A stretch of 45,687 bases of DNA from Candidatus Omnitrophota bacterium (lineage in GTDB: Bacteria > Omnitrophota > Gorgyraeia > 2-01-FULL-45-10). The stretch lies in the NCBI GenBank assembly GCA_003142795.1, contig PLNN01000059.1, forward strand, positions 36,535-82,221. Reading direction: 5' to 3'. The translations under genes and the position numbers were made by a program. The notes under the pieces were generated by a model. The model was given only the letters and a program-made list of their open reading frames with translations. It ran no database searches and was not told where the DNA came from. Below are positions 8,842-22,500 of the stretch, piece by piece; the first letter of the stretch is position 1; each line of letters opens with the position of its first letter.

Positions 8842-8852
8842 CTTACACCGCC

Positions 8853-10823
8853 CTATCCGGCATTTTTGCCTGAGCCTTTTTCTTTCTCGCCGTAATACCG
8901 CCTGTAGTAATAGTAATACGCGTCGATCCCTACCTCGGGCATAACATTATTTAATATTATCCCTGAGAGCGATCCCGGCTTGACGCTTTCTATCTGTATC
9001 TTGGCGCGGCGCAGGGCAAGCCTTGAAGTGGCCCCGGCTTTATACACCAAAAGGACTCCGTCCACCTTAGGTATCATAATGGACGGCTCGCTCACGGCCA
9101 GGATAGGAGAAGTGTCTATCAGGATCAGGTCGTATCTTTTTCTGAAGTCGTTTAAAAGGGCGTCCATCTTTTCGGAATTAAAAAGATTTATCGGGTTTGG
9201 GAATATACTGCCCGCCGTAAGGATGTTGAGATTGTTCAGCCATGGCCGGTCTATGATCTTATTGCCCTCGGTCGTCCCCAACATGAGGTCTGTCGCCGTC
9301 TTCACAACGGAATCGAAGGTCACCTTGCCTGTCAGGATATCCAAAAGCCCTCCCTCTTTGCTCTTTAAGCCGAACAGCTTATGGATGTTCGCCCTGCGGG
9401 AGTCGCCGTCGATGAGCAGCGTCTTGTAGCCCATCTGCGCCATGATCACCGCGAGATTGGACGTGATAACGCTCTTACCTTCTTCGGGATTGCAGCTCGT
9501 TACCAATATGATCTTATTTTTTATCTTTTCGCCTTTTCCGAACAGCACCTGCAGGTTCACGCTCAAGATCCGGAAGGCCTCTAAAAAGATAGAGCCTCCC
9601 GGCTGATCGAAGGCGGAGACGGACGTTTCGCATACTGATGTCTTTGCCCCATGCCTTCTTTTGAAAGATATCCCGCCCATGATCCATCTCAGCATCTTTT
9701 TCCACAACCCCGGCCTTTCCATATCTTCGCCGGCCGTCTTGCTCGAGCAGTACGGAATGACGCCCACCACGCTGACCTTTATGAAATTTTCTATGTCATC
9801 GACCCTGCCTATTGAAGTATCGATATGCTCCGTCACCAGCGCAACGGTTACGCCGAGGACAGCGCCCAGGATTAGGGCCATCGCGTAGTTTTTCGCTTTG
9901 TTGGGATATGAAGGGTATCTCGGCGGGATGGCGGGATTGACTATCAGGACATTGTCCACTTTTTCCGCTTCTTTTATCTGCGCCTCCGGCAGTTTCTGTT
10001 TCAGGGAAGTGTAGAGGGCCTCGTTCACCGTTATGTCCCTCTTCAGGATGCTGTACTCGAATTCCTCTTTCGACAGGTCGTGCAAAGACCCTTTCAACTC
10101 GCTTATCTCTTCATCCATGCGCACAACTTCCGGATGTTTTTCAGTAAATTTTGTCATCAGGTCCATGCGTTTCTTTTCCAACTCAGAGATCTGGTTCACT
10201 ATGTTCACACCGGACCCAATGACACCTTGCTTTGTAAGTTCGCGCATCCTCGCATCCTGCGCTTTCAGCTTTGCCGAGATCCTCCTAAGCGTCTTCTCTA
10301 TGAAGGCCCGGACATTATGGGCCTGCTGGTTCTTCTGTTCGAGATTGATATTTTTGAATGCATCGGCGATATTGTTGGCCAGGTTTGCCGCCTTCTCGGG
10401 ATCCTGGGAAGAGACCTGCAGCCTGATCATGTTTGTCTTCTCTATCTCCTGCGCCTCGACGCCGGCGCTCATCTCGCTGATGATCCCGTTCTTGACCTTG
10501 TCGGTCATGCCGTCCGTTATCAGTCCCATATTTTTCCCGGCCAGTTCCAGGACAGGCCTCGAGACGATCTGCCTGGTATAGTCCGAGAGATTGGTCGTCG
10601 CGGCTGTCCAGTATTGAGCGCTCGACGGAAAGACCACCTCGGAGGGTATACTCAAAGTGGGGATTATCTTCAGTAGGACCGTGGCGGAATATATGGGCCT
10701 TTGAAAACTTGTATAGACGAATATGCTTATAAAAACGGTAAAGAAAGAGATTATCACCGACAGCCTTCGCTTCAGGAAGATATTCCAATAATCTCTTAAA
10801 TTCAGTTCGTAGAGTTGAGCCAT
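8853..10823 (-). CDS. wzc: Wzc-like polysaccharide co-polymerase / BY tyrosine autokinase
   Basis: Wzz-type N-terminus (ELNLRDYW, PIYSAT), coiled-coil, second TM helix, Walker A SCNPEEGKS, A' LLIDGDSRR, Walker B LIDTSP and C-terminal tyrosine cluster AYYYYYRRYY. TTG start. Confidence 0.9.
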   Translation of the reverse strand: MAQLYELNLRDYWNIFLKRRLSVIISFFTVFISIFVYTSFQRPIYSATVLLKIIPTLSIPSEVVFPSSAQYWTAATTNLSDYTRQIVSRPVLELAGKNMGLITDGMTDKVKNGIISEMSAGVEAQEIEKTNMIRLQVSSQDPEKAANLANNIADAFKNINLEQKNQQAHNVRAFIEKTLRRISAKLKAQDARMRELTKQGVIGSGVNIVNQISELEKKRMDLMTKFTEKHPEVVRMDEEISELKGSLHDLSKEEFEYSILKRDITVNEALYTSLKQKLPEAQIKEAEKVDNVLIVNPAIPPRYPSYPNKAKNYAMALILGAVLGVTVALVTEHIDTSIGRVDDIENFIKVSVVGVIPYCSSKTAGEDMERPGLWKKMLRWIMGGISFKRRHGAKTSVCETSVSAFDQPGGSIFLEAFRILSVNLQVLFGKGEKIKNKIILVTSCNPEEGKSVITSNLAVIMAQMGYKTLLIDGDSRRANIHKLFGLKSKEGGLLDILTGKVTFDSVVKTATDLMLGTTEGNKIIDRPWLNNLNILTAGSIFPNPINLFNSEKMDALLNDFRKRYDLILIDTSPILAVSEPSIMIPKVDGVLLVYKAGATSRLALRRAKIQIESVKPGSLSGIILNNVMPEVGIDAYYYYYRRYYGEKEKGSGKNAG

Positions 10824-10838
10824 TATTCCCTTCTGCGC

Positions 10839-11645
10839 TTAGTTACTCGGGACATCTTTTACCGGCCTGTGTATAAACCATGCTCTGGCTTCTTTTGCTA
10901 CGGAGGAGAAGTTCGTGCCCGCGGTAAATATGGTCGTGGCGGTATTCAGGACCGGCTGTATTTCGTTCAGGAATTTGTTAAAGTCGGCGATAGTCGACCT
11001 GGGCACATATACCACATCATTCGGCTTAAGAATAATATCGGAGCTTGAAGTGCCTTTCCTTATGGCGGTAAGCATATCTACCCTTCGGACCTTCGGATGC
11101 TCGGTAAGATTGTCGCTTATGACCATGATGCTTTCCCTGCGGCCGTCCGGCGTAAAATCGCCGGCCATGGCCACCGCCTCAAGAAGATTTATAGTTCCCT
11201 TAAAGGTATAGATGCCCGGATAGCTGACCTGCCCTAAAACAAGTATCTTATTGCCTACCGATTCCTTGACGGAAACTGTAACCTGCGGCAGCCTGACGTA
11301 CTCGGACAGTTTCTCCGTGATCATCTGCTGGAGCTGGTCGATGGTCATGCCGGCCGCTTTTATCGTGCCAACCAAAGGATATGACAATTTGCCATCCGGC
11401 CTTACAAGAACGTCACGGGTAAGATCCGTGTTCTGCCATACGTAAATTTCGAGCAGGTCGCCGGCGGCTATGTAATATTCCGCGACAGCCTCACCCATCG
11501 AGCTCGTATTTGTAGGGATTGTGCCGTAGGAAGTGCTTCGAAGTCTTATGAATTCCTTTGCCTGGGGAAATGCCGGCTGGCCGGCAATACAAATTATCGC
11601 GATGAATATAAAAAATACCCTATTTTTCAGCGCACTCTTTAACAT
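10839..11645 (-). CDS. wza: Wza-like polysaccharide export protein (Poly_export + SLBB)
   Basis: YYIAAGDLLEIYVW, VRPDGKLSYPLVG, VLGQVSYPG and LKPNDVVYVP; N-terminal signal sequence. Confidence 0.88.
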   Translation of the reverse strand: MLKSALKNRVFFIFIAIICIAGQPAFPQAKEFIRLRSTSYGTIPTNTSSMGEAVAEYYIAAGDLLEIYVWQNTDLTRDVLVRPDGKLSYPLVGTIKAAGMTIDQLQQMITEKLSEYVRLPQVTVSVKESVGNKILVLGQVSYPGIYTFKGTINLLEAVAMAGDFTPDGRRESIMVISDNLTEHPKVRRVDMLTAIRKGTSSSDIILKPNDVVYVPRSTIADFNKFLNEIQPVLNTATTIFTAGTNFSSVAKEARAWFIHRPVKDVPSN

Positions 11646-11710
11646 GCCGCCATCCGTTTCTTATATATAATATAATTACATCCTAAGCCTGATGTCTCCA
11701 TGTAAATATA

Positions 11711-12874
11711 TCATATATTAAGCATACTTGTCAAATAACGCACGGCTCCGCTGCAAAGCCTTTCCAGATAGCCTCTCTTTCCCATGATCTCCCTGGGCGG
11801 CCAGCACACCCTTTTAAAAACATTTACATGGTCTTTGAAAGATCCCGCCTCCGATATTTCAAATAATATGTAGCTCAGGAAGCTGTCGAGAAGCCTCCTC
11901 CTGAACCTGCTTCTCAGCATGACCCTTTTATTTGCAAAGGTCGTTATGAAAATACGTTTCGGCAGGGAAAGGCGCAATTTGCCCAATATATCTTTGGGAA
12001 AGTTCACATCGAAAATTGAGTCGGTAACTTTAAGCGCGGCGTAAAGCGAACCACGGAGCCGCCACTTGACGGCCTTTTCGGCTAATGCGTCCCAATCGAT
12101 ATCGTTTCCATATTTATCTATCAGGCGGTCTATATCACAGAGATATTTAAGTTTTCGGAAAGAGTCGCTGTTCACCAGATGCGCTGAAAGATAGAGTAAA
12201 AGTTCCTCGGGTTTAAGGTCGTAGAAAGAGACCCCTTCCCACTTCGTCTCTTCCGCGCCCTCCCAAAGCCCCTCTATTCTTTCCGTCGAGCGGACCATCA
12301 TCGTGATATCCCAGTGCAGTTCGATCATCCTTGCCCTGGGCTTATGGAAGGTGTGGCACCATTCGTATGAACTGATCTCGTCGGCCGGTGCGCGGGCATA
12401 ACCCAGTTCTTTTAGCGCCGCGCCTGCGCGGTCTTTATCTTTTTCGCGAACCAGGAGGTCCACATCTACGCTACGGTCCCGGCTTGCTATATCCCCGTAA
12501 AGCCTGTGGGCGAGCGTGATCCCTTTTAGCGGTATCACGGCTATATCGAGCGCGGAAAAATGTTCCAGGACCCTGACCAGTTCATCTTTGTAATATTCAT
12601 TGACCGCGGAACTCGCGGCGTGGGAGACCCGTAAAGACTGAAGCGATCTTTCACCGATTTTGTCTACGGGAACGTAAAACCGAAGAGCGCGGTATACGAG
12701 CGAAGATACTCCTCTTTCGCGCGCCGTCCTTGCGATAGTCTCGAGATCGGCGCCTTCTTTTATGAGGCCGAGGAGCGCCTCTTCATGCGTGGCAGCGTCC
12801 TTTTTTAAGGAGGCGGCGAGGAGCCTTTCCGTGCGTTTATCCAATACCGTTGATCTGGCCCGCGAATAATTCAT
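11711..12874 (-). CDS. Nucleotidyltransferase family protein (NTP_transf_5-like, RiPP/lasso-cluster-associated type)
   Basis: PLKGITLAHRLYGDIASRDRSVDVDLLV (LKG...DxD), IELHW and LKYLCDI motifs. Confidence 0.85.
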   Translation of the reverse strand: MNYSRARSTVLDKRTERLLAASLKKDAATHEEALLGLIKEGADLETIARTARERGVSSLVYRALRFYVPVDKIGERSLQSLRVSHAASSAVNEYYKDELVRVLEHFSALDIAVIPLKGITLAHRLYGDIASRDRSVDVDLLVREKDKDRAGAALKELGYARAPADEISSYEWCHTFHKPRARMIELHWDITMMVRSTERIEGLWEGAEETKWEGVSFYDLKPEELLLYLSAHLVNSDSFRKLKYLCDIDRLIDKYGNDIDWDALAEKAVKWRLRGSLYAALKVTDSIFDVNFPKDILGKLRLSLPKRIFITTFANKRVMLRSRFRRRLLDSFLSYILFEISEAGSFKDHVNVFKRVCWPPREIMGKRGYLERLCSGAVRYLTSMLNI

Positions 12875-14585
12875 TGTATTTTATATCGCTCTCGGCGAAT
12901 GCCTTTGCTGTGCCTGCATCCATCTTGGACGGACTTTTAAGGAAATAGACCGTATCCATCTTCCTGGCGGAAGAGAGCCTGTGAGAGATCATGACAAGTG
13001 TCGACCCGGGATAGGCGCCTATTATGTTATCGACTATTCTTTCCTCTAATCCTGAATCGAGCGACGAGCAGGCCTCGTCCATTATCAGTATCTTCGGCTT
13101 CTTCGCGAGCGCGGCGGCGATCGCCATCCTCTGCCGTTGGCCCTGCGAGATCACCGACACCATGTCTTCCAGTATGGTGTTATACCCGTCGGGAAGGCCC
13201 TCGATGAAAGAATCGATCTCGGCCAATCGCGCCGCGCGCCGGACTTCGGAAGCGTCTATCGAGCGCCCGCCCCATGCCATGGCCTGGGCGATGCTGCCGC
13301 TCCATAGGGACGGTGCCTGAGGGACGAGCCCCGTCTGGCTGTAGATCGATTTCAACGACATCTCTCTCACGTCGCAGCCGTCCAGAAATATTCCGCCGCT
13401 ATTTACATCATACAGCCTCAAGATCAGGTTCGCTATCGTAGTCTTGCCACTCCCGGACGCGCCTACGAGCGCCGCTTTCGATCCGGGCATTACGGTAAAA
13501 TTGATCCTGTCGAGGACGAGATCATTGCCTCCTCTGTACCCGAAAGAGACGTTTTTAAAATTTATTCCTGGGCGCGAGAATTTTACATAGGGCGCGCCGG
13601 ATCTTTCTTTTACATATACCGGCGCATCCAAAACCTCCGCCATGCGCTCCAATGATAAACGGTTCAGGACGATCCGCTCGAAGACCGTCACAAGCGCCGT
13701 ATAGGCTGCCGTGCCCTGGGACATGTAGGCCAAGATAGCGCCGAGAGAGCCGAGAGTCATCTGCCCTTTTATGACCAGTAAGGTTCCGACGAGGCCTACC
13801 GTTCCGAAAAATAGTTTTCCGGATATTTCTGACAGCGCGTCCGAAATAGAATCGAGTTTCGTGGTCGCGGCTTCCGAACGTATCGAATCGAAAAATATAT
13901 GGAAATATTTCCGCACGACGGCGGCCATGGTGCCGGAGGCCTTTATAACGTAAATTTGCGAAAAGATCTGGGTCAGAGCCCTGGACATATCCCAACCCTT
14001 CTTATAAAACGCCCTGGCTAATGCCTCCTGTCGTCTGGCGAAAAATCGCGCCTGGGCTATGACTATAACTTGATAGCACAGTATAAGGATCAATATCTTG
14101 ACATTTATGAACGCAATGATGAGCGTGATGAGTATCAACCGGAGGACTGCTTTGATAAGCTCGGGGGCTGTCGAGGCTATAACGCCGGAACAGACGGTGA
14201 TATCCGCATTCAGCCGCGAGGCATACCCGCCGATAGACTTGTCGCGAAACGATTCGAGCGAAAGTTTTTGTGTCTTCCTGAATACGCTCCTCGCGAGATC
14301 GACCTTTATCTTTCGCGTCGTGGAATTTTTAAGGACCGAGGCCCCCCTGTCAGAAACCTGCCGTAAGAGATAAATTACGCCGCCTATCAGCGTGTATATG
14401 AAAAATGATCTCATATCCCTGCCAAGGATGCCGTTATCGAGGATCAATTTCCCTATATACGGCCCGAAGAGAGAAAATATTATGGAAACGACGCCGCATA
14501 ACAGCAGCGCCGAGCCGGCCTTCCAGTAGCGGATGAGGTAAGAGTTAAACCTTAAAAAAATTTTTATCTTATCGACGCGCGGCAC
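12837..14585 (-). CDS. ABC exporter (TMD + NBD), no C39 peptidase domain
   Basis: About six TM helices, Walker A GASGSGKT, signature ISQGQRQR, Walker B ILIMDEA, H-loop SHRLS. Confidence 0.92.
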   Translation of the reverse strand: MPRVDKIKIFLRFNSYLIRYWKAGSALLLCGVVSIIFSLFGPYIGKLILDNGILGRDMRSFFIYTLIGGVIYLLRQVSDRGASVLKNSTTRKIKVDLARSVFRKTQKLSLESFRDKSIGGYASRLNADITVCSGVIASTAPELIKAVLRLILITLIIAFINVKILILILCYQVIVIAQARFFARRQEALARAFYKKGWDMSRALTQIFSQIYVIKASGTMAAVVRKYFHIFFDSIRSEAATTKLDSISDALSEISGKLFFGTVGLVGTLLVIKGQMTLGSLGAILAYMSQGTAAYTALVTVFERIVLNRLSLERMAEVLDAPVYVKERSGAPYVKFSRPGINFKNVSFGYRGGNDLVLDRINFTVMPGSKAALVGASGSGKTTIANLILRLYDVNSGGIFLDGCDVREMSLKSIYSQTGLVPQAPSLWSGSIAQAMAWGGRSIDASEVRRAARLAEIDSFIEGLPDGYNTILEDMVSVISQGQRQRMAIAAALAKKPKILIMDEACSSLDSGLEERIVDNIIGAYPGSTLVMISHRLSSARKMDTVYFLKSPSKMDAGTAKAFAESDIKYNELFAGQINGIG

Positions 14586-15102
14586 TTATCTTCTCCTCCA
14601 ACCCGGGCCAGAAGCTTCTTTCCTTAACGAATTCCATTTCATACGCCGGGATATTTTTTACAAGATCGCAGGCCGTGGAAAATATTTTCTTAAGAGGCTC
14701 GTCCCCCGTGGCCGCGAGAAAGTGGATGTGGTTCGACAAAATATTAGCCAGGGCTTTTTCAGGCGGTAGATATCTGAACGAGACGCGGTTAGATTTTTTG
14801 ATGAAAAATATCGCGGCGGCCTTTCCTTTCAGGCCGCGCTTCAATTTTATAAAAGGCTGCTGTCTCCACGGGGTTTGAAAAGCGTAATAATGCCTGCCGC
14901 ATTTTCTTATCGCGATGATATCGTCGCCTAAAACCGTGTATTTTCTGGAAAGGGCCGCTATCGTGGATTTGCCGGCGCCGGATACGCCCAAAAAAAGGAA
15001 CGTCTTTCCGCCTTTAACGACGGCTGAGGCGTGCAGCAGCATTCCGTTGTTCAGCGCCAGCATCTGGGAGTATAGATATGAGGCGAGCCTGCTATTACGC
15101 AC
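14569..15102 (-). CDS. HPr-kinase-related P-loop kinase (ScmC-like), short form
   Basis: LLHASAV, Walker A GVSGAGKST, LGDD and TPW motifs. The GTG start overlaps the 3' end of the precursor gene. Confidence 0.8.
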   Translation of the reverse strand: MRNSRLASYLYSQMLALNNGMLLHASAVVKGGKTFLFLGVSGAGKSTIAALSRKYTVLGDDIIAIRKCGRHYYAFQTPWRQQPFIKLKRGLKGKAAAIFFIKKSNRVSFRYLPPEKALANILSNHIHFLAATGDEPLKKIFSTACDLVKNIPAYEMEFVKERSFWPGLEEKISAARR

Positions 15103-15460
15103 CGCCGCCCGAGCCGCTTGAGCATTTTGAAGCGCTGGAGCCGCTTCCGCACATAGGACCTAATGGGGTTGAGCCCCTGGTGCAATCGCCGGGAAAACTA
15201 GAGCCAATGTCGCAGTTTATAACGGCGTCTGTGCCGTTCAGGCAGCTTTCGAGAGCGGTAGTGCCGTTATTGCAATTCAGGGTCTGAGGTTGATTGCCTT
15301 GCTGACATTTTGCCGGACCGCCCTGCGGCTCGGTGCCGTTGGAGCAGGCAGAGCCGATATCGCCGGAGCTGCAGCCCGTTGCGCCCATCGGCGTAAAACC
15401 GGGCTTTCCCGATTCAGGATCGGTTACAAGAGGAGGGACATATTTCTTCTTCATACTCAT
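15095..15460 (-). CDS. Putative RiPP precursor: lasso-type leader plus nine CxxG repeats
   Basis: 121 aa. Leader KKKYVPPLV (YxxP-type RRE-binding motif). Core CSSG, CSNG, CQQG, CNNG, CLNG, CDIG, CTRG, CGSG, CSSG. AGAAGGT RBS upstream. Adjacent to RRE and rSAM genes. Confidence 0.82.
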   Translation of the reverse strand: MSMKKKYVPPLVTDPESGKPGFTPMGATGCSSGDIGSACSNGTEPQGGPAKCQQGNQPQTLNCNNGTTALESCLNGTDAVINCDIGSSFPGDCTRGSTPLGPMCGSGSSASKCSSGSGGGA

Positions 15461-15496
15461 ATATTTTACCTTCTAAATCGGTTATTGTCAATCCCT

Positions 15497-16831
15497 CTAA
15501 CGGGAGATATTTTTCTTTTTCCAGCAGTATATGTCGCGATTTTTTATTCCACCGGGATTATAATAGGGGTAACAGCGATGGCCCAAAAAACACAGATACT
15601 GATAGACGCACCCTTTACATTCCGGTATTTCGTCCAGGTCCACTTCCATCGGTTTGCGGAAAGAATTCATCGTTTCCGAATTTTGCCATATATCGGCCAG
15701 GCTCTTCTCTTTCAGATTCCCGCACTTCACGTCCCACATTATTTCACAGGGCGTGACCCACCCGTCCGGCCGCACTGCGCATTTCGAGCCCGCGGCCCCG
15801 CAAGGCCCGACGATTATCTTGTCATTGGAAGGTTTGTGGTCCTTGACCTTATCGAGTTTTTTCTTCTGGCAGAGATACGAGCTGTCCGGATATATGAAAC
15901 CCTCAAATTCTTGGCTGGCCTGCCAGACCGCCTCTATCGCCTCTCTTTCTTCATCGGGCGACAGGTAAAGCTCTTCTACAAAACACGCGGCGTTCCCCCC
16001 AAAAAATACGTGGTTGAATCGTATGGCGGCTGCGTCCAGTTTTTTCCCGGCGACCACCATATCCCGGACATCTTTATAGTTGAGCTTGGTAAGCGTAACC
16101 GAAAGAAGGACGGATAACCCCTCGTTTCTTAGCGCGCGGATGCCTTTTATGCATCTCTCGAATGTCCCGGCGCCCCGCATCCGCTCCATGATCTCCGGCG
16201 TCGAACCGTCAAAACTCACTACGGTGCTCGTGATCTTGTGGGCCTTGAGCCACCGCGCCATTTCGACATCTATAAGAGTGCCGTTCGTATTGAGAGAGAT
16301 GCTGATCGGATATTTATTTATCCGCTCTATTATGCGCCTGAAGTCCGGATGGCATAGCGGCTCGCCCCCAAAAATATTTATAGCCTTTGTCCCGCCTTCG
16401 CCCATCGCGTCTATAACGTCCACGATCTTCTCGTACGTCATGACGGGCTCCGGCCGGGACTGGGAAGAGCCCGAGGCGCGGTTTATGCAATGCCTGCAGT
16501 TCAGATTACATTTTGATGTAATGCCGAGGCATACGGAGAGAGGAAGATCAGTAATAGAGGAATAATTTTCCAGGAAACCCATCTTCCCCAGCGAGTCCAC
16601 AAATGTGTCATAATCTTTCCGGGCCGTTTTTTCGTCCACGATCTCGAAATCTCGCGACATCTCTTCGATTATCCCGCGCGCCATATTTTTTCCGTCCAGG
16701 CGGGACCAGATGAATTTCCCGGTTTCATTAAGGATGTTGATCTTCCCCGTGTCGGGATCGAAAAGAAGGCCTATCTCTTCTTCTTCCCTGAAGACTATAT
16801 CCGGCTTGCGTTTGTAGTTGATGATTTTCAT
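15497..16831 (-). CDS. scmE: PqqD/RRE-fused radical SAM/SPASM enzyme (ScmD+ScmE-like)
   Basis: N-terminal RRE (LLFDPDTGKINILNETGKFIWSRLDG). CNLNCRHC, GGEP and NTNG. SPASM CGAAGSKCAVRPDGWVTPC...CKGCVYQYLCFLGHRC...C. The symbol is by resemblance to the SynChlorMet cassette. Confidence 0.8.
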   Translation of the reverse strand: MKIINYKRKPDIVFREEEEIGLLFDPDTGKINILNETGKFIWSRLDGKNMARGIIEEMSRDFEIVDEKTARKDYDTFVDSLGKMGFLENYSSITDLPLSVCLGITSKCNLNCRHCINRASGSSQSRPEPVMTYEKIVDVIDAMGEGGTKAINIFGGEPLCHPDFRRIIERINKYPISISLNTNGTLIDVEMARWLKAHKITSTVVSFDGSTPEIMERMRGAGTFERCIKGIRALRNEGLSVLLSVTLTKLNYKDVRDMVVAGKKLDAAAIRFNHVFFGGNAACFVEELYLSPDEEREAIEAVWQASQEFEGFIYPDSSYLCQKKKLDKVKDHKPSNDKIIVGPCGAAGSKCAVRPDGWVTPCEIMWDVKCGNLKEKSLADIWQNSETMNSFRKPMEVDLDEIPECKGCVYQYLCFLGHRCYPYYNPGGIKNRDIYCWKKKNISR

Positions 16832-17097
16832 ATACTCCGAACTTTTATAAGTTTTCTTTTTTCAAGGTCTTTCACGAATCTGGCCGCGTCGTTCTTCGCA
16901 ACCGGCATTCCTATGCCGTACTCCCTCACCAGATGCCGTATTATATCATCTATGCTCTTCCGGCCCTTGCAAAAATCCCAGACCGCGGAAGCGGTATCGT
17001 TCAATACATATGATTTATGGGTGGTCGTATTAAATACTACTTTATTGGGCGGGAAATCCGCCGTCAGCACATCTTTTGATCGCTCTATTTTACGCAT
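16828..17097 (-). CDS. Stand-alone PqqD family RiPP recognition element
   Basis: 89 aa, VFNTTTHKSYVLNDTASAVWDFCKG...DAARFVKDLEKRKLI, the classic PqqD pattern. Confidence 0.88.
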   Translation of the reverse strand: MRKIERSKDVLTADFPPNKVVFNTTTHKSYVLNDTASAVWDFCKGRKSIDDIIRHLVREYGIGMPVAKNDAARFVKDLEKRKLIKVRSI

Positions 17098-17113
17098 ATA
17101 AGTTTAGCCCCCT

Positions 17114-17140
17114 GAAAAATAGGGACACATCCCATTTTTC
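17114..17140. repeat. REP-like palindrome, copy 1
   Basis: GAAAAATAGGGACACATCCCATTTTTC, a hairpin overlapping the stop codon of the 17139..18203 gene. Confidence 0.85.
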
Positions 17141-18203
17141 ATATAATTCTCGATCCCGGGAAGAGGCCTTCCTCATACGCGGCCTGACAGAACGAGAGCG
17201 GCGCCGACACAGAGCCTTTCGAGTAATACGCCTCCGCCCTGCACTTACCCAGGCAATAATATCTCAACATACAGCGGCCGCATATCCCGGACATCCTGGC
17301 CGGAATATTTTCCCTGATCTCTCGCAAAACGGGATGATCGCTCCAGATGTCCTTTATCCTGTCCTTACCTATCCTGCCCAGGACCAGCCTGTCGACATTC
17401 GATCCTATGCCGCATATGGAGATCGCGCCGTCGCCCAAAATGCCCAATATGTTGAATATACTGCAAGTGCTGATGCTCTCTATGCGCATATTCTTAACCT
17501 GTTTAAAAGCAGGAGGTATATCGAATATCACCCTTATCGGGGACAGGACATTCATCTCTTCATTAAGCTCGTTATAAAAATCTATCGTCTCTTTAACAGT
17601 CAATGTCTCTTGCCGTTCCTGCATGAGATCGGCGCGGCACATGCCCTGAATCAGATTTATTTTAACAGAGGAAGCGCCGAGAGACCGCGATAACTTTATT
17701 GTAGATTTTATATTATCTTTATTCCCTCTCCAAAGAGACGTTATTACCTGTATGCTGAGGCCTTCTTTTTTTAGCGCGGCGATCCCCTTGAGGGCGTCGT
17801 CAAAAGAACCTTTTACGCCCCTCAAGGCTTCGTGAATTCCGGCGTTCGGCCCATCCAGAGATACTGCGATAAGCGTTGCTTGCGCCTGCCTTAAGGCCTT
17901 CGCCTCTTTCTCTCTTATGAAGACGGCGTTCGTTTCCATACTGAGCCTTATCGATTTTTCGCGGACGTATTCCAGGAGGCCGAATATGTCATTCCTTGTG
18001 AACGGCTCGCCGCCCGTCAGCTTGACCGATCTCATTCCGAGCTCGCGACACTCTTCAAGGCAGGAGATTATATCATCGAGCGGCGCCTCATCTTCTCTTA
18101 AGCCCCGACTATCCGCGTAAGGAGGGTTTATCCAGCAGTGCCTGCACTTCAGGTTGCAGTATTTAAAATATAGATATACGGTGCGAAGAGCGAATTTGTC
18201 CAT
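17139..18203 (-). CDS. scmF: Radical SAM/SPASM enzyme (ScmF-like)
   Basis: CNLKCRHCWINP, VKLTGGEP and METN. SPASM CSIFNILGILGDGAISICGIG...CGRCMLRYYCLGKCRA...C. The symbol is by resemblance. Confidence 0.8.
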   Translation of the reverse strand: MDKFALRTVYLYFKYCNLKCRHCWINPPYADSRGLREDEAPLDDIISCLEECRELGMRSVKLTGGEPFTRNDIFGLLEYVREKSIRLSMETNAVFIREKEAKALRQAQATLIAVSLDGPNAGIHEALRGVKGSFDDALKGIAALKKEGLSIQVITSLWRGNKDNIKSTIKLSRSLGASSVKINLIQGMCRADLMQERQETLTVKETIDFYNELNEEMNVLSPIRVIFDIPPAFKQVKNMRIESISTCSIFNILGILGDGAISICGIGSNVDRLVLGRIGKDRIKDIWSDHPVLREIRENIPARMSGICGRCMLRYYCLGKCRAEAYYSKGSVSAPLSFCQAAYEEGLFPGSRII

Positions 18204-18216
18204 AATTATATCGGGT

Positions 18217-18690
18217 CTATCTTGGTATTATACGCGTTACCGCTTTTAAAATAAAGAAAAACGAGCAGACAAGCGGTTTTAACGGCGCTCGAACGAAGGA
18301 CGGCATCTCTTTGGCCGAACGCCGCATCGCGATAACGGCGTTGGCGAGCCTAACGTAGAATAGCGCGGCAAACCGGCTCTCTTTCAGGACAACCCGGCCA
18401 ATGACATCTGACTGGGCGATGCGGTCCGCGTCGATGTAAAATTGATTATCGCCTTTGGTGAGAAAAATCCTCTCCTGTTTCGGGCCCTCTATCCCGATTA
18501 CGCGGTGGGTCACGGCCCTCTTAGGAAAAATAGGGACACATCCTATTTTCCATATTTTTTGATATATGATTATGTCACCGGCATGGATCGCATCGGGCGA
18601 AACTTCTTCTACAAGAAGCCGCGCGCCGACACGAATGGTCGGCAGCATGCTCTTGCCCTCGAATGGCATAGTGGTAAAATAGGGACGCAT
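18217..18690 (-). CDS. S26 (Sec11/SipW-type Ser-His) signal-peptidase-like protein; candidate leader peptidase
   Basis: GKSMLP, GDIII, THRV and TKGDN motifs. The annotated ATG lies within a REP copy, so the real start may be the ATG at 18669. Confidence 0.8.
   Translation of the reverse strand: MRPYFTTMPFEGKSMLPTIRVGARLLVEEVSPDAIHAGDIIIYQKIWKIGCVPIFPKRAVTHRVIGIEGPKQERIFLTKGDNQFYIDADRIAQSDVIGRVVLKESRFAALFYVRLANAVIAMRRSAKEMPSFVRAPLKPLVCSFFFILKAVTRIIPR
18524..18551. repeat. REP-like palindrome, copy 2 (intragenic, in frame)
   Basis: GGAAAAATAGGGACACATCCTATTTTCC, which encodes WKIGCVPIFP in the peptidase. Confidence 0.85.
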
Positions 18691-18698
18691 CCTATTTT
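18676..18698. repeat. REP-like palindrome, copy 3
   Basis: AAAATAGGGACGCATCCTATTTT, containing the transposase TAG and the peptidase ATG. Confidence 0.8.
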
Positions 18699-19357
18699 TT
18701 CGGTCTTCCTTTTGGACGCAATGAAAACTCTATCCCGAGTTCCTCCGCTATTTGCCGAATGAATTTTTCGGTTCCTGTCGGTCTTCCCGTATAGAGCGCG
18801 CTTCTTATGCGCCTTTTCTCCTCGTCCGCCTCCGGCAGATTCAGAAACGCAATATAATTTTTTCTTTCTTTTTCATTATACCATATAGGCGTTATTAAAG
18901 GACTTTTTCCTGTGCCGGCGATATGCGTTCTCGCACTTGACCATTCATAACATTCCGGACTGTCGGCGATTTCTGCCCGAACGGGATTTCTTTCTATATA
19001 TTTGCAAACCGTCCAAAGGTGCGAGTCTCTTTCTATCACAGACGCGTAAAATCTGGACTCCCAAAGCCTGCCGGTCCGGTCGTATTTCTTGTTTATATGC
19101 TGCGTGTATGTCAGGCTTAATTTTTGCATCATCTTCGACAAGGCAGTTGCGATTAACGGCGTTAGCAACAAGTGCGCATGGTTATTCATAAGGCAATAGC
19201 TGCTTACGCGACAATCGCATTCAGTGGAATATTTTTTCAACAGATCTAAATATATCCGCCTATCCGAGCCATCAAAATATATGGGCTGTCTGTTATTCCC
19301 TCTCTGGACTACATGATGCGGGTAGTCTACGGCTATGATTCTGGCTATCCGTGGCAT
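18692..19357 (-). mobile_element. REP-associated tyrosine transposase (RAYT, Y1_Tnp/HUH family)
   Basis: MPRIAR, HHVVQRGNNRQ, HUH motif CLMNNHAHLL, GRLWESRF, catalytic Tyr in KYIERNPVRA, YEWSS and KGRPKK tail. Flanked by palindromic repeats. Confidence 0.9.
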
Positions 19358-19489: not shown

Positions 19490-19559
19490 TAAAAAAATAG
19501 GGACACATCCTATTTTTTTATCAGTCTCTTCGGTAAAAAAATGGGATGTGTCCCTATTT
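19490..19559. repeat. Inverted REP doublet (REPIN-like), copies 4-5
   Basis: TAAAAAAATAGGGACACATCCTATTTTTTTA (19490-19520) and inverted AAAAAAATGGGATGTGTCCCTATTT (19535-19559). Confidence 0.85.
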
Positions 19560-19561
19560 AA

Positions 19562-22500
19562 TTAATTCGTCAGGATGCCGCGGCGGACGCTGGACGATCC
19601 CCACGTGGGAGTTCCGCTACCGACTGTGCCGTTCATCCCGTAGATGGAACTTGAGGTATCCCAGAACGCGTACAGCGTGTTGCCAGCGTTATTGATCGAA
19701 AGCGTCGGGTTGCCGGTCACTATGCCCGCGTAAAGGGTTACTGCAGAGCTCCAAGAGGAGAGCGCGGCGTTGAATTGTCTGTACATCAGCTGATTACTCG
19801 TGTTGGTGTAGATAAGATTGACATTGTGATTAGAATCCATGACGGCTGAGATGGGGACATTGGATCCAACATCAACCGCTCCGGTCGGAATGTACTTCGC
19901 TATATAGCCTGACGATATTCCTTTTACGTCGATGAAGTTTCCGCCAGCGTAAATGTCATTGCCGTTGACCAGCAGAGTATAAACGCCGCCGCTCGAGAAG
20001 CCAACGTCGTTGCCGGCATTTAATGCGTAGAACGTGCTGTTGGAGGGATCATATTTAGCGGCGCGATTGACCGTAACGCCGTTGGCGGTCGTGAAATCTC
20101 CGCCTACATAGATTATTGAATTAAGTATCACCAGGGTGCGGACTGAATTATTCATTCCTGTGCCAAGCGCGCTCCAGCTGGAACCGTTCCACTTGGCTAT
20201 ATAATTTGGATTGGTAACGCCGCCGGCCAGGGTAAAGAACCCGCCGACGTAGACGTGTGTTGCATCCACAACCGCTATGGCATTAACGACGCTATTCACT
20301 CCCGTATTACCATTATACGTAAGCGCATTCCAAGAGCCATTGTATTTCGCAATATAGTTAAGGGTCGTAACGTTGTCGCCGGTCTTGGTAAAACCGCCTC
20401 CCACATAGACATCAGAGCCGGAAAGGACGATCGTGTTTACATAATTATTCAATCCGTTGCCAAGCGCGCTCCAGGTTGAAGTCGAAACGGTCCATTTCGC
20501 TATGCGGTCCGCGGCCGCAATGCCTCCGGCATCGGTAAAATAACCGCCGACATAGAGGTCGGTGCCGTCTGTCGCCATCGTATTTACGTAACTGTTGACC
20601 CCTGTGTTACCGCTATAGACAAACGCATGCCACGAGCCGTCCCACATAGCAAAGCGGTTCAATGTTATCGCGTTATCGGACGTCGCACTGAAGCCGCCGC
20701 CTATATAAAGCTTGCCGTCGATCACGACCAATGCCTTGACGAGACTATTAAGACCGTTATGCCCGTTATCGATGAGGGCCGCCCACGTGCCTGTAGAAGG
20801 CGTGTATTTGGCGATGCGGTTCACCGTAAGGCCGCCTGCCGTTGTAAAGTTGCCGCCTACGTAGATATCTGTGCCCAATACCGCCATTGCGTATACAAGA
20901 CCGTTCGTGCCGATCGCGCCGGAAGCCGGCGTTATCGGGCTCCATGTGATACCGCCGCTGTATATGGACAGGTAACTCGTATTGACGCCGGATGACTGTG
21001 TAAAATCTCCTCCGGCACAGACGTAGTTATTGACATCACGTGCGATAGCTCTGACTGAAGCATTCATACCCGTATCAAGCGCAGACCATGTGTCGTTATG
21101 CCGCAGGGCAATATGGTTGGCAGAATTATTGTCCGCAGTGGTGAAGTCTCCTCCGACGAAGAGGTAGTCGCTGCCGGAATCATAAAGGATGGCTCTGACC
21201 GCACCATTCATTCCTAACCCAAGCGCTGACCAGGAGTTGCCATCCCACTTTGCAATGTAGTTGACAGAGCTGCTGCCCGCATTGGTAAAATCTCCTCCGG
21301 CGTAGACATTGCTGGTGTCCGTGCCATCGATCGCATAGACAGTTCCGTTAAAGCCGTCGCCAACAGGGTCCCAGTAGTTGCTACCACTACCTGCATTATC
21401 TGATACAGCTATTCTATTTGCGGCAATCTGCTCACCATGATAGCCGTAAGCTATCGTAAAATCACCGCCTGCAAAAAGAGCTTCTTGGCCATAGGAGCTT
21501 CCTGCTGTTACTTTCAAAGCGCGCACGGTTCCATTTACGCTGCCATAAGCCCCAGTTGCAGACCAACCACCTCCGTCGTAATTGTAGGTGGCTACATAGT
21601 TAAAATTATTACCGCCGGCAGTAGTGAATGCGCCGCCGACATAGATATCATAATAAGTGATGCTCGTCGCCAATGCATACACAGGGCCGTTTGTGCCCTC
21701 ATTTCCGGCGCCGCCTAATGCGTACCAGCTCGTGCCATTCCACATCGCGATGTAATTAACGTCGGTCTGGCCGCTTCCAGCCGTGGTGAAGAGACCTCCC
21801 ACAAAAAGGTAGTTACCTCCATAGGCGCTGCTTGTCGTCAGAGCTCTAACCGAACCGTTAACGCCGCCGGCAAGATCAACCCAGGCGGAACCATTCCATT
21901 CAGCAATATGATTGATGGCGCTGCCGCCGGCCGTTGTAAAATCTCCGCCGACATATAGGTTCCCGTTCCATATGATCATCGCGTATACCGCTCCATTCAG
22001 ATCGACGTACGGGAACGCGAACCAGGCATAGTCTCCGCCGTCATTCGGCTCGGTCCAGTTAGTGCCGTTATAATAATAATGGGTAATGTTATTAGATATC
22101 CCGGAAGCTAAGATATTCATCGTCCCGGAAGCGCCCGGCAGGAGCACTATGTCGCTCAAAGTCTGAGAGCTCTCTCCCACCTTCACGGCAGTTGTCGGCC
22201 AGGCGGAGATATCGCCGCTCACTACGTTAGTCGATTTCTTTACGTTTACCTGATAATAAGTTCCCTGCACATAGTGGCTGGCGGCCGCCCATACATAATT
22301 ATCCGTGCCTATAGCCAATGTGGGCTTTGAGTAATAGTCGCCGTCCGACGTGCCGCTGAATACTGTCACTTCGCTGCCGAATCCGATACTGGTCGCACTG
22401 ACTGCCCCTTTATTTAACACTATATTGTAACCGTTCACGGTCGCCACGACCGCGTATCCTGCGCCATAAGCTACCGTGAATGTTGGCGTGGTGAAGGAAC

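What the first reader, a model, noticed from the sequence alone, without database searches (positions are those of the whole stretch)
11711..18690. Complete RiPP-like cassette (two rSAM/SPASM, two RREs, kinase, nucleotidyltransferase, S26 peptidase, ABC exporter) around a CxxG-repeat precursor
Seen: eight co-oriented, overlapping or tightly spaced genes: S26 peptidase, rSAM/SPASM, PqqD, PqqD-rSAM/SPASM fusion, precursor, HprK-like kinase, ABC exporter and nucleotidyltransferase. Known: this resembles the bioinformatically defined SynChlorMet cassette, whose product is to my knowledge uncharacterised. HprK-like kinases and nucleotidyltransferases accompany phosphorylated lasso peptides such as paeninodin. 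Inferred: a hybrid pathway in which rSAM enzymes form Cys-thioether or other crosslinks, a kinase and nucleotidyltransferase add further decoration, and an S26 peptidase removes the leader in place of a lasso B2 or C39 protease.
Basis: partly seen in the sequence, partly recalled or inferred. Interest (0 to 1): 0.9.

Follow-up and report, generated by a model that had tools for sequence, protein, structure and literature searches.

The report
Radical-SAM cassette for CxxG-repeat peptide
An eight-gene operon in a small-genome uncultured bacterium most likely turns a small protein carrying nine evenly spaced cysteine-glycine motifs into a cross-linked, decorated and exported peptide that belongs to a widespread family whose chemistry nobody has yet worked out.

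Summary
Eight co-oriented, overlapping or tightly spaced genes on the minus strand (11711-18690) encode an S26 peptidase, a ScmF-like rSAM/SPASM enzyme, a PqqD protein, a PqqD-rSAM/SPASM fusion, a 121-aa peptide in which all 9 Cys start a CxxG motif, an HprK/PEPCK-fold P-loop protein, an ABC exporter without a peptidase domain, and an NTP_transf_5 protein. ScmF, ScmE and ScmC are the best NCBIfam hits, but all four Scm models score below their cut-offs. This is therefore a divergent relative of the SynChlorMet cassette, not a member. In 15 of 19 other Omnitrophota loci picked by the ScmF-like gene, the same parts recur in varying order together with a CxxG-repeat peptide that has a [KR]xYxxPx[IVL] leader. 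Canonical SCM loci in other phyla carry related Cys/Gly peptides and the S26 gene. A profile search found 124 short peptide clusters of this kind, none named in Pfam or NCBIfam. The chemistry remains inference: thioether links are most likely, possibly followed by phospho-glycosyl decoration. In this genome a REP/RAYT element has altered the S26 gene and the P-loop gene lacks its N-terminal domain, so "complete" needs qualifying. It is a new variant of a catalogued but uncharacterised RiPP system.

The parts
18217..18690 (-). S26 (ER/archaeal-type) signal-peptidase-like protein, 157 aa. Proposed leader peptidase.
   Evidence: It matches TIGR02228 at 63.6 bits against a 51.85 cut-off and Pfam S26 at 21.7 against 22.9. 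G12, S14, M15, P17, H62, R63, G80, D81 and N82 are invariant in 19 cassette homologues. It has no N-terminal hydrophobic segment; the only KD(19) window at or above 1.6 starts at residue 137. Residues 46-56 are encoded by a REP copy at 18525-18555, and the start codon lies in a REP copy at 18674-18704.
17139..18203 (-). ScmF-like radical SAM/SPASM enzyme, 354 aa, with no RRE domain.
   Evidence: It has Radical_SAM at 80.7 bits and SPASM at 24.5 bits. TIGR04251 ScmF scores 337.5 against a 400 cut-off, followed by AhbD at 151 and NirJ2 at 133. The CxxxCxxC motif is at residues 16-23, with a C-terminal Cys cluster at 308-339.
16828..17097 (-). Stand-alone PqqD-type RRE, 89 aa.
   Evidence: It matches PF05402 at 59.8 bits. 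The best NCBIfam hit is lasso_PqqD_Bac at 45 bits against an 80 cut-off; ScmD scores 28 against 100.
15497..16831 (-). Fusion of a PqqD-type RRE (about residues 1-92) with a ScmE-like radical SAM/SPASM enzyme, 444 aa.
   Evidence: PqqD covers residues 23-86, Radical_SAM 104-259 and SPASM 344-408. TIGR04250 ScmE scores 165.9 against a 400 cut-off and is the top hit. The CxxxCxxC motif is at 108-115. The nearest solved sequences are SkfB, CteB and SuiB, all distant.
15095..15460 (-). Precursor peptide, 121 aa. The leader is about residues 1-29 and holds K-K-Y-V-P-P-L-V. The core is about residues 30-121 and holds nine CxxG units of roughly 10 residues.
   Evidence: Translation is. All 9 Cys start CxxG, spaced 9-13 residues apart. 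There are no Pfam or NCBIfam hits. Y7 and P10 are conserved in 108 aligned relatives. The core has no confident fold, with pLDDT 39-52. There is no hydrophobic segment. It is single-copy in the genome.
14569..15102 (-). HprK/PEPCK-fold P-loop protein, 177 aa. It corresponds to the C-terminal half of ScmC and is the proposed peptide kinase.
   Evidence: ScmC scores 34.1 against a 125 cut-off and aligns to profile positions 123-290 of 292; HprK_rel_A gives E 1.4e-5. The AF2 model has pLDDT 92.2. Every Foldseek row shown is PEPCK or HprK/P. It carries GVSGAGKS at residue 39 and LxDD at residue 58. It lacks the N-terminal domain present in 24 of 26 relatives.
12837..14585 (-). ABC exporter, a fused permease-ATPase of 582 aa with no peptidase domain.
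   Evidence: It has ABC_membrane at 73.4 bits and ABC_tran at 96.8 bits and no C39 hit. It aligns to NHLM ABC1 from profile position 151 onward, that is, after that model's peptidase part.
11711..12874 (-). NTP_transf_5 (Pol-beta-type nucleotidyltransferase fold) protein, 387 aa. Proposed tailoring enzyme.
   Evidence: It matches PF14907 at 168.2 bits against a 31.2 cut-off. A G-x...D-x-D motif starts at residue 118. It has no PDB relative by sequence.
17114..17144 (.). REP-like palindromic element in the ScmF/PqqD intergenic gap. Further copies lie at 18525-18555 and 18674-18704.
   Evidence: It belongs to repeat family D9. The genome holds 14 copies against 0 for the reversed control.
18692..19357 (-). 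RAYT-like Y1 transposase, 1 nt upstream of the S26 gene. It is a mobile-element neighbour and not a cassette part.
   Evidence: Y1_Tnp scores 62.6 bits. REP_Tyr_transpos scores 67.9 against an 80 cut-off. REP doublets lie at 19490-19564.
10839..11645 (-). Wza-like polysaccharide export protein, 65 nt downstream of NTP_transf_5. It is recurring context, followed by Wzc-like 8853-10823 and a PEP-CTERM-type ATPase 8011-8841.
   Evidence: Family hits are. The same ABC-NTP5-Wza/Wzc order occurs in L004, L007, L032 and L044.

Best explanation
This is a RiPP-type maturation operon of the SynChlorMet (SCM) superfamily, in a divergent Omnitrophota branch.

The substrate is the 121-aa peptide. A roughly 29-residue leader carries a [KR]xYxxPx[IVL] motif. 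It is followed by a disordered core of nine units of about 10 residues, C-x-x-G-x-x-[A/P]-x-x-x.

Proposed order of events, all inferred:
1. The PqqD-type RREs, one free and one fused to the ScmE-like enzyme, hold the leader.
2. The two radical SAM/SPASM enzymes modify each Cys unit. The most likely product is a Cys thioether cross-link within the unit, either to the invariant Gly at +3 (a 4-residue sactionine ring like those reported for streptosactin) or to the residue at +4.
3. The HprK/PEPCK-fold P-loop protein phosphorylates the peptide, and the NTP_transf_5 protein elaborates that phosphate, as the pseudomycoidin enzymes do.
4. The anchor-less S26 peptidase (Ser-His type) removes the leader.
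5. The ABC exporter, which has no peptidase domain, secretes the product.

Shown here: gene identities, conserved catalytic motifs, co-inheritance of the parts, and conservation of the leader and the CxxG unit. Inferred: every chemical step, the order of steps and the biological role.
For: Domains and motifs:
- Both rSAM enzymes have Radical_SAM+SPASM and CxxxCxxC.
- The S26 Ser/His/Asp-region residues are invariant in 19 homologues.
- The P-loop motifs are conserved. Its AF2 model has pLDDT 92.2, and all listed matches are PEPCK or HprK/P, E from 2.9e-6 and TMq 0.37-0.58.
- NTP_transf_5 scores 168 bits.

Co-inheritance. The 19 other Omnitrophota loci were chosen only by the ScmF-like gene. 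By tblastn and ORF rules they contain:
- second rSAM, 18
- RRE, 17
- P-loop, 18
- ABC, 14
- S26, 13
- NTP5, 12
- CxxG peptide with leader motif, 15
This holds although one clade orders the genes rSAM-ScmF-Ploop-ABC-PqqD-peptide-S26-NTP5.

Fusions. L007 encodes a 790-aa protein joining a radical SAM domain to the P-loop domain. L032 fuses ScmF to a methyltransferase.

Peptide conservation:
- In six close precursors, 57 of 58 Cys have G at +3 and 49 of 58 have A, P or V at +6.
- A profile of those six found 145 proteins at E<=1e-3 among 1.84 billion representatives, 124 of them <=200 aa.
- In those 124, 848 of 893 Cys start CxxG and 117 of 124 have [YWF]xxPx[ILVMAF] near the N-terminus. The modal Cys spacing is 10 (408 of 769 spacings). 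This enrichment is partly built in, because the profile came from CxxG peptides.
- The Cys count is odd in 69 and even in 55 of them, which argues against obligate disulfide pairs.
- The core has no confident fold, pLDDT 39-52.

Leader binding. Co-folding the fused RRE domain with peptide residues 1-40 gave weak support: ipSAE 0.51 against a best control of 0.00. The mark was reached by 58 of 80 solved complexes and 2 of 110 mismatches, but at 0.60 or under by only 7 of those 80 solved complexes and by both mismatches that passed. The runs agree in at least 86% of contacts and the partner's pLDDT is at least 55. RRE-leader complexes of other RiPP classes are solved (recalled), so this pass may reflect likeness to them.

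Precedents read as passages:
- An HPr-kinase homologue phosphorylates a peptide Ser, and a nucleotidyltransferase adds hexoses to that phosphate (PMC8498205).

Kinship. L014 is a bona fide SCM locus: ScmD 109, ScmF 427.7 and ScmC 150.8, all above cut-off. It has a Cys/Gly-rich 74-aa peptide and an S26 gene in the same arrangement.
Against: - No product, mass shift or transcript has been observed.
- All four Scm equivalog scores are below their cut-offs.
- The closest relatives of the ScmF-like enzyme outside ScmF are haem-pathway enzymes (AhbD 151 bits, NirJ2 133 bits) and not peptide maturases. The nearest solved structures are distant. The sequences therefore do not predict the reaction.
- The residue at +4 is variable: T 19, S 8, D 7, G 6 of 58. 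That weakens a fixed Cys-to-(+4) link.
- Gly at +3 could be purely conformational. Some canonical SCM peptides have CxxxG instead.
- The precedent kinase acts on a C-terminal Ser. This peptide ends in Ala, and only 18 of the 124 relatives end in Ser.
- A simple [AV]xA site before the first Cys is not enriched: 23 of 119 against 109 of 735 before the other Cys. The S26 cleavage site is therefore undefined.
- In this genome the S26 gene has a REP-encoded 10-residue insertion and a REP-derived start that removes about 20 N-terminal residues present in relatives.
- The P-loop gene lacks its N-terminal domain.
- Among 16 other genomes of the same family, the one cassette match has two in-frame TAA stops in ScmF.
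Confidence: 0.75

Rival explanations
1. Same cassette, but eroding or inactive in this genome. REP/RAYT activity and deletions have damaged the leader peptidase and the kinase, so no mature product is made, or only a partly processed one.
For: - A REP copy at 18525-18555 lies in frame inside the S26 ORF. It is the only 10-column insertion in the 19-row alignment.
- The S26 start codon and first residues come from a REP copy, and about 20 N-terminal residues present in L003-L007 and L032 are missing.
- The P-loop protein is 177 aa, against 251-368 aa in relatives.
- The cassette is rare in the own family: 1 of 16 other genomes, and that copy has 2 TAA stops.
Against: - All eight reading frames are open.
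- All invariant S26 residues and the P-loop motifs are retained.
- The truncated P-loop domain folds confidently on its own, pLDDT 92.2.
- A second short copy (184 aa) exists in L015.
- The insertion lies between conserved blocks, not within one.
Confidence: 0.2
2. The thioethers are lanthionine-like rather than radical. The P-loop kinase phosphorylates Ser/Thr at +4 or +5 of each unit, phosphate elimination gives dehydro-residues, and Cys adds by Michael addition. The rSAM enzymes then do something else, such as epimerisation, C-methylation or decarboxylation.
For: - The P-loop protein is as constant a cassette part as the rSAM enzymes: 18 of 19 loci.
- Ser/Thr make up 41% of +4 and 35% of +5 positions in the 124 relatives.
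- ScmF resembles the decarboxylating haem enzymes AhbD and NirJ2.
- Phosphorylation followed by elimination is the route of class II-IV lanthipeptides (recalled knowledge).
Against: - No lyase or cyclase domain was found in the cassette.
- Many units have no Ser/Thr at +4 or +5; for example, G, D, N or Q is at +4 in 21 of 58.
- What is invariant is Gly, not Ser/Thr.
- rSAM/SPASM enzymes next to Cys-rich peptides are the usual signature of radical thioether formation.
Confidence: 0.1
3. The Cys/Gly-repeat ORF is not the substrate. It would be a small secreted structural or metal-binding protein of the neighbouring exopolysaccharide/surface locus, and the rSAM enzymes would act on another molecule.
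For: - The cassette lies between a 4247-aa surface-type protein and a Wza/Wzc/PEP-CTERM-type locus.
- ABC-NTP5-Wza/Wzc adjacency recurs in L004, L007, L032 and L044.
- The ScmF-like enzyme's nearest named relatives are cofactor enzymes.
Against: - The peptide has no signal peptide or hydrophobic segment; the maximum KD(19) is 0.47.
- It has no confident fold.
- Odd Cys counts are common.
- It has a conserved RRE-type leader motif, and one or two RREs are encoded beside it.
- It moves together with the rSAM/RRE genes through rearrangements, and up to 3-5 copies per locus occur in L034 and L008.
- Long proteins that matched the profile are unrelated perfect tandem 10-mers.
Confidence: 0.05

Closest known systems
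SynChlorMet (SCM) cassette as defined by NCBIfam/TIGRFAM models TIGR04248-TIGR04251 (ScmC, ScmD, ScmE, ScmF)
   Same: ScmF, ScmE and ScmC are the best NCBIfam hits of the window proteins. Loci that pass the SCM cut-offs (L014, and for ScmF also L038, L044, L008, L011 and L013) share several features with the window. They have a PqqD-type RRE, one or two rSAM/SPASM genes, a P-loop ScmC and an anchor-less S26 peptidase. All except L011 also carry a Cys/Gly-rich peptide with a [YW]xxPx[LIV] leader.
   Different: All four window proteins score below the equivalog cut-offs: 337.5 against 400, 165.9 against 400, 34.1 against 125 and 28 against 100. The window clade adds a second, lasso-like PqqD, fuses the other RRE to ScmE, and usually appends ABC and NTP_transf_5 genes. 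Its peptide is longer, with a strict 10-residue CxxG unit, 9 here and up to 14 in short relatives. No paper holding the word 'SynChlorMet' was found.
Type-2 sactipeptides and ranthipeptides (streptosactin/GggB, QmpB, freyrasin/PapB, NxxcB, thermocellin/CteB)
   Same: All pair an rSAM/SPASM maturase with a Cys-bearing precursor and form short, unnested Cys-to-nearby-residue rings. Streptosactin has 4-residue sactionine rings (passages of PMC9389541). That ring size would fit C-x-x-G.
   Different: No close sequence relation exists. PapB family scores 78.7 against 340, StsB 88.9 against 625 and AlbA 74.5 against 850. This system uses two rSAM enzymes and 5-14 tandem units. It adds a kinase-fold protein, an NTP_transf_5 protein and an S26 peptidase. 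The link itself is unproven.
Phosphorylated and phospho-glycosylated lasso peptides (paeninodin, pseudomycoidin)
   Same: Both combine a PqqD-type RRE, an HPr-kinase-like protein, a nucleotidyltransferase and an ABC exporter. The leader motif YxxPx[LIV] resembles the lasso leader motif (recalled). The stand-alone PqqD's best hit is lasso_PqqD_Bac. The enzyme precedent was read in PMC8498205.
   Different: The cassette has no lasso cyclase and no B2 protease domain. The peptide has no C-terminal Ser. The lasso_PqqD score is 45 against an 80 cut-off.
ER/archaeal-type signal peptidase I (TIGR02228; SipW-like)
   Same: It passes the TIGR02228 cut-off, 63.6 against 51.85. The GxSMxP, HR and GDN blocks are invariant.
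   Different: It has no N-terminal membrane anchor. It is encoded inside a peptide-maturation operon in two or more phyla. Its likely substrate has no signal peptide.

Membership tests
SynChlorMet cassette (NCBIfam equivalogs) | ScmF equivalog score >= 400 bits (TIGR04251) | tested here: not met
   The window scores 337.5 bits and ScmF is the top hit. Relatives L004, L032, L033, L035 and L041 score 333-364. L038, L044, L008, L011, L013 and L014 score 428-576.
SynChlorMet cassette (NCBIfam equivalogs) | ScmE equivalog score >= 400 bits (TIGR04250) | tested here: not met
   The window scores 165.9 bits; ScmE is the top hit.
SynChlorMet cassette (NCBIfam equivalogs) | ScmD (>=100 bits) and ScmC (>=125 bits) | tested here: not met
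   ScmD scores 28 for the free PqqD. ScmC scores 34.1 and covers only the C-terminal half of the profile.
SynChlorMet cassette (gene-neighbourhood sense) | RRE + rSAM/SPASM + ScmC-like P-loop genes side by side, with a shared precursor type | tested here: met
   The same parts plus a Cys/Gly-rich peptide with a [YW]xxPx[LIV] leader occur in the bona fide SCM locus L014 and in L010, L012, L015, L038 and L044.
rSAM/SPASM peptide maturases (sacti-/ranthipeptide type) | CxxxCxxC radical SAM cluster motif and a SPASM auxiliary-cluster domain | tested here: met
   Both enzymes have PF04055 and PF13186. The motifs are at residues 16-23 and 108-115, and both have C-terminal Cys clusters.
rSAM/SPASM peptide maturases (sacti-/ranthipeptide type) | Cys-to-carbon thioether in the product | not testable with these tools
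   This needs MS/NMR of the product.
Lasso peptide pathway | Asn-synthetase-like lasso cyclase (C) and transglutaminase-like leader protease (B2) | tested here: not met
   None of the eight proteins has such a Pfam or NCBIfam hit.
HprK/P-PEPCK P-loop kinase fold | Fold and P-loop. Membership of HPr(Ser) kinase proper needs TIGR00679 >= 240 bits. | tested here: inconclusive
   The fold is met. The AF2 model has pLDDT 92.2, and the listed Foldseek hits are only PEPCK (E 2.9e-6, TMq about 0.55) and HprK/P (E 3.5e-5, TMq 0.40-0.47). GVSGAGKS and LxDD are present. TIGR00679 scores only 17 bits, so this is not HprK proper. Kinase activity is untested.
NTP_transf_5 (PF14907) | Pfam gathering score 31.2 | tested here: met
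   It scores 168.2 bits, covering profile positions 3-248 of 249.
S26 signal peptidase, ER/archaeal type | TIGR02228 cut-off 51.85 and Ser/His catalytic blocks | tested here: met
   It scores 63.6 bits. S14, H62 and D81 with their flanks are invariant in 19 homologues. The Pfam S26 score of 21.7 is just under its 22.9 cut-off.
Peptidase-containing bacteriocin ABC exporters (C39 type) | N-terminal C39 peptidase domain | tested here: not met
   There is no C39 hit. The alignment to TIGR03796 starts at profile position 151.

The most novel reading that the evidence does not exclude
The product founds an uncharacterised RiPP class. It would be a long 'beads-on-a-string' peptide in which each of 5-14 tandem 10-residue units is closed by a radical Cys-to-Gly(+3) alpha-thioether. 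A kinase-fold and NTP_transf_5 enzyme pair then phospho-glycosylates it. It is exported not as an antibiotic but as a component or primer of the capsule/exopolysaccharide layer of small-genome Omnitrophota and other anaerobes. That role would explain the recurring ABC-NTP5-Wza/Wzc adjacency and the use of a signal-peptidase-type leader protease.
Probability: 0.12. Interest if true: 0.8.

Novelty: new variant of a known kind. Interest (0 to 1): 0.6.

Why it matters
The SCM cassette has existed as four NCBIfam models with no named substrate model that matches these peptides, and I found no paper on it. This work ties the cassette to a concrete precursor family that can be recognised from sequence:
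- a [KR]xYxxPx[IVL] leader;
- tandem C-x-x-G-x-x-[A/P] units with a period of 10;
- at least 124 clusters at 50% identity, spread over several phyla;
- no match in Pfam or NCBIfam.

It also shows that an anchor-less S26 peptidase and an HprK-fold P-loop protein are core parts of the system. ABC and NTP_transf_5 genes are frequent additions.

That gives natural-product chemists a ready target: one peptide and two rSAM enzymes to co-express. It offers a test case for a signal-peptidase-type leader protease in RiPP maturation. Through the recurring polysaccharide-export neighbourhood, it also raises a testable idea that some rSAM-modified peptides are envelope components rather than toxins.

Tried and rejected

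- Literature. 'SynChlorMet' returned 0 papers. TIGR04251/TIGR04250/ScmF/ScmE as whole words returned 418 papers; the 20 listed were unrelated acronyms with 0 occurrences of the TIGR numbers. A five-term search (ranthipeptide, signal peptidase, PqqD, cysteine-rich, SPASM) requiring at least 4 terms returned 0. For Omnitrophota + RiPP + radical SAM, only two of the 15 papers listed hold the word Omnitrophota (PMC13635244, PMC9902471). I read passages of PMC9902471 only, and it names no such cassette. Supplements are closed and could list such clusters. About 1.7 million PMC articles are not searchable.

- Word-indexed homologue search. Searching with the precursor found only itself and one 60%-identical protein. 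The exhaustive profile search was needed.

- Long profile hits. Of the 21 hits longer than 200 aa, the seven longest examined are unrelated proteins such as GH20, QSOX and BTB. Those whose sequences were read (P0003, P0010) carry perfect tandem 10-mers that happen to contain CxxG. I rejected them as relatives. P0016 and P0026 look like genuinely long precursors.

- Folded-repeat idea. AF2 with 108 sequences gave mean pLDDT 52.8 and pTM 0.24, with the core at or below 52. The Atlas model has pLDDT 0.40, and its nearest feature clusters are unnamed hypothetical proteins.

- S26 site. [AV]xA within 9 residues before the first Cys is not enriched, 23 of 119 against 109 of 735. I dropped the claim of a classic AxA site. 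Clade-specific junctions such as G-A-T-G before the first Cys are only noted.

- PDB by sequence. The P-loop protein matches Walker-A stretches only. NTP_transf_5 matches nothing. S26 matches one weak SPase I hit, E 0.064.

- Promoter and terminator scan. The counts equal the shuffle expectation, 13 against 12.3 and 9 against 9.8. I make no operon-boundary claim. The 11/12 matches at 15491-15463 and 11734-11705 are only noted.

- Expression. No RNA holder was listed. Two metatranscriptome runs of the same study as X1 laid 0 contigs. This says nothing about expression.

- Composition. The profile shows no anomaly over the cassette.

Full report
WHAT IS THERE.

On the minus strand between 11711 and 18690 lie eight open reading frames. 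The gaps between neighbours are 13, 41, -4, 36, -8, -17 and -38 nt. In order of transcription they are:
- An S26 peptidase-like protein (18217-18690). NCBIfam sigpep_I_arch scores 63.6 bits against a 51.85 cut-off. Pfam S26 scores 21.7 against 22.9.
- A radical SAM/SPASM enzyme (17139-18203).
- An 89-aa PqqD protein (16828-17097).
- A 444-aa fusion of a PqqD domain with a second radical SAM/SPASM enzyme (15497-16831).
- A 121-aa peptide (15095-15460) with no family hit.
- A 177-aa P-loop protein (14569-15102).
- A fused ABC permease/ATPase without a peptidase domain (12837-14585).
- An NTP_transf_5 protein (11711-12874, PF14907 at 168.2 bits).

The window belongs to a 1.94-Mb, 70-contig genome that is 92% complete. 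Its closest cassette relatives are all titled Candidatus Omnitrophota.

THE PEPTIDE.

All nine Cys begin a C-x-x-G motif and are spaced 9-13 residues apart. I compared the window peptide with a 60%-identical metagenome protein and the peptides at the same place in four syntenic Omnitrophota loci. In these six, 57 of 58 Cys have Gly at +3, and 49 of 58 have Ala, Pro or Val at +6. The N-termini share K-x-Y-x-x-P-x-[IVL].

A profile of the six, run against 1.84 billion representative proteins, gave 145 hits at E<=1e-3, of which 124 are <=200 aa. In those 124:
- 848 of 893 Cys start CxxG.
- 117 of 124 carry [YWF]xxPx[ILVMAF] near the N-terminus.
- The commonest Cys spacing is 10 (408 of 769 spacings), followed by 11 (176).
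- Position +6 is Ala in 49% and Pro in 20%.
- The Cys count is odd in 69 and even in 55.

The query profile was built from CxxG peptides, so part of this enrichment is built in. The conserved leader and the period of 10 are still striking.

I examined seven of the 21 longer hits. They are unrelated proteins, and the two whose sequences I read carry perfect tandem 10-mers. I discarded them as relatives.

None of the peptides tested hits Pfam or NCBIfam; the tested set was the window, L004, L007 and L014. The nearest Atlas clusters are unnamed. AlphaFold2 with 108 sequences gives no confident fold for the core, pLDDT 39-52. The peptide has no hydrophobic segment. It looks like a leader-plus-core precursor, not a secreted folded protein.

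CO-INHERITANCE.

A scan of species-representative genomes with the ScmF-like protein returned 14 loci. A search of 401 Omnitrophota genomes found it in 15 including the window's own genome. I fetched wider flanks for the other 14. That gave 19 Omnitrophota loci besides the window, chosen only by the ScmF-like gene. Automatic tblastn and ORF rules found:

| Part | Loci of 19 |
|---|---|
| Second rSAM | 18 |
| RRE | 17 |
| P-loop gene | 18 |
| ABC exporter | 14 |
| S26 gene | 13 |
| NTP_transf_5 | 12 |
| CxxG peptide with the leader motif | 15 |

Several misses are at contig ends. L003 keeps only S26 and ScmF. The same-family locus L045 has two TAA stops in ScmF.

One clade orders the genes rSAM-ScmF-Ploop-ABC-PqqD-peptide-S26-NTP5. 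The parts therefore stay together through rearrangement. L034 has three precursor genes and the Kapabacteria locus L008 has five.

Two fusions tie parts together physically. L007 has a 790-aa radical-SAM-plus-P-loop protein, and L032 has ScmF fused to a methyltransferase.

RELATION TO THE SYNCHLORMET CASSETTE.

ScmF (337.5 bits), ScmE (165.9) and ScmC (34.1) are the best NCBIfam hits of the respective window proteins. ScmD scores only 28, behind lasso_PqqD_Bac at 45. All four are below the curated cut-offs of 400, 400, 125 and 100.

L014 (Desulfobacterales) passes for ScmD, ScmF and ScmC. Between ScmF and ScmC it carries a 74-aa Cys/Gly-rich peptide with a K-W-x-x-P-x-L leader, followed by an S26 gene.

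ScmF scores in ten further loci split cleanly. L038, L044, L008, L011 and L013 score 461-576. L004, L032, L033, L035 and L041 score 333-364.

The window therefore belongs to a divergent branch beside the canonical SCM family. The canonical family is itself present in some Omnitrophota, and both branches share the precursor type and the S26 gene.

I found no paper containing 'SynChlorMet'. The targeted searches found nothing on this cassette.

THE ENZYMES.

- Radical SAM enzymes. Both have CxxxCxxC and a SPASM Cys cluster. Their nearest solved relatives by sequence are distant: SkfB, CteB, SuiB, PqqE and a cytosylglucuronate decarboxylase. After ScmF, the ScmF-like enzyme resembles the haem enzymes AhbD and NirJ2. 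Sequence alone therefore does not fix the reaction.
- S26 protein. GxSMxP, HR and GDN are invariant in 19 homologues, and there is no N-terminal anchor.
- P-loop protein. It folds confidently (pLDDT 92.2). In the PDB its listed matches are only ATP-dependent PEPCK and HprK/P. LHA, GxSGxGK[ST] and LxDD are conserved.
- RRE and leader. Co-folding the fused RRE domain with peptide residues 1-40 gave weak support, 0.51 against a best control of 0.00. The caveats and calibration counts are given in the For line.

HOW IT MOST LIKELY WORKS (inference).

1. The RREs hold the YxxPx[IVL] leader.
2. The two rSAM/SPASM enzymes modify each CxxG unit. The most likely product is a thioether. Short unnested Cys-to-nearby-residue rings, including the 4-residue sactionine rings of streptosactin, are documented (PMC9389541 passages).
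3. The kinase-fold protein and the NTP_transf_5 protein add and elaborate a phosphate, as in paeninodin and pseudomycoidin (PMC8498205 passages).
4. The S26 protein removes the leader.
5. The ABC pump exports the product.

Points against the specifics:
- Position +4 is variable.
- Some canonical SCM peptides use CxxxG.
- The peptide has no C-terminal Ser.
- No classic AxA site is enriched.

STATE OF THIS COPY.

A 31-nt palindromic REP-like element occurs 14 times in the genome, against 0 for a reversed control. Seven of the 14 copies lie in this window and five cluster at the 5' end of the cassette:
- One copy lies in the ScmF/PqqD gap.
- One lies in frame inside the S26 ORF, covering residues 46-56. 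It is the only 10-column insertion in the S26 alignment.
- One supplies the S26 start codon, replacing about 20 N-terminal residues seen in relatives.
- An inverted doublet lies upstream of a RAYT-like transposase gene that ends 1 nt before S26.

The P-loop gene lacks the N-terminal domain present in 24 of 26 relatives. All frames are open and the catalytic motifs are kept. Function is plausible but not assured.

CONTEXT.

A Wza-like gene starts 65 nt downstream. It is followed by Wzc-like and PEP-CTERM-type ATPase genes. The same ABC-NTP5-Wza/Wzc order occurs in L004, L007, L032 and L044, and Wza/Wzc genes lie near the SCM loci L014 and L015. Upstream is a 4247-aa repeat protein. This hints at an envelope-related role but does not show one.

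No RNA evidence could be obtained.

VERDICT.

This is a new variant of a catalogued but chemically uncharacterised RiPP system, and it now has a defined and widespread precursor family. Interest is 0.6.

Noticed in passing
window 17114-17144, 18525-18555, 18674-18704, 19490-19564, 38569-38637; RAYT-like gene 18692-19357: A small REP/RAYT system. A 31-nt palindromic element occurs 14 times in the genome against 0 for the reversed control, partly as inverted doublets, beside a Y1 transposase (REP_Tyr_transpos 67.9 against an 80 cut-off). One copy is inserted in frame in the S26 gene, and another provides its start codon. A RAYT homologue (41% identity) also sits between the ABC and NTP5 genes in L005.
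   Followed up: yes
window 19562-32305 (-): A giant 4247-aa repeat-rich protein lies directly upstream. It has Rax2 beta-propeller, DUF2341 and weak Laminin_G hits and many internal DNA repeats (families D1-D12).
   Followed up: partly
window 8011-11645 (-): A polysaccharide export set follows the cassette: a Wza-like protein (pepcterm_export 131.6 against 180), a Wzc-like tyrosine kinase, and a PEP-CTERM-system-type ATPase (219.1 against 324.5). The ABC-NTP5-Wza/Wzc order recurs in L004, L007, L032 and L044.
   Followed up: partly
L007 13402-15774 and 5302-9947: L007 encodes a 790-aa fusion of a third radical SAM domain with the P-loop kinase domain. Just upstream it has a second, divergent mini-cassette of S26, NTP_transf_5 (opposite strand), S26, P-loop, PqqD and rSAM.
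   Followed up: partly
L032 7394-9919: Here the ScmF-like enzyme is fused to a C-terminal SAM-dependent methyltransferase domain (841 aa). The precursor gene starts 2 nt after it.
   Followed up: partly
L016 2300-20400: A locus from an uncultured bacterium holds at least 17 tandem radical SAM paralogues, each weakly similar to the window's rSAM enzymes.
   Followed up: no
window 15463-15491 and 11705-11734 (-): Two 11-of-12 sigma-70-like matches. One ends 3 nt before the precursor start codon, so it would imply a leaderless or internal start. The other lies at the end of the NTP5 gene, ahead of the Wza-like gene. The total number of such sites equals the shuffle expectation.
   Followed up: no
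L008 13026-15604: The Kapabacteria SCM locus carries five tandem precursor genes. Their leaders contain Y-C-x-P-E-[IV]-V-D-F-[KR]-W-M, and their cores mix CxxG and CxxxG units.
   Followed up: no
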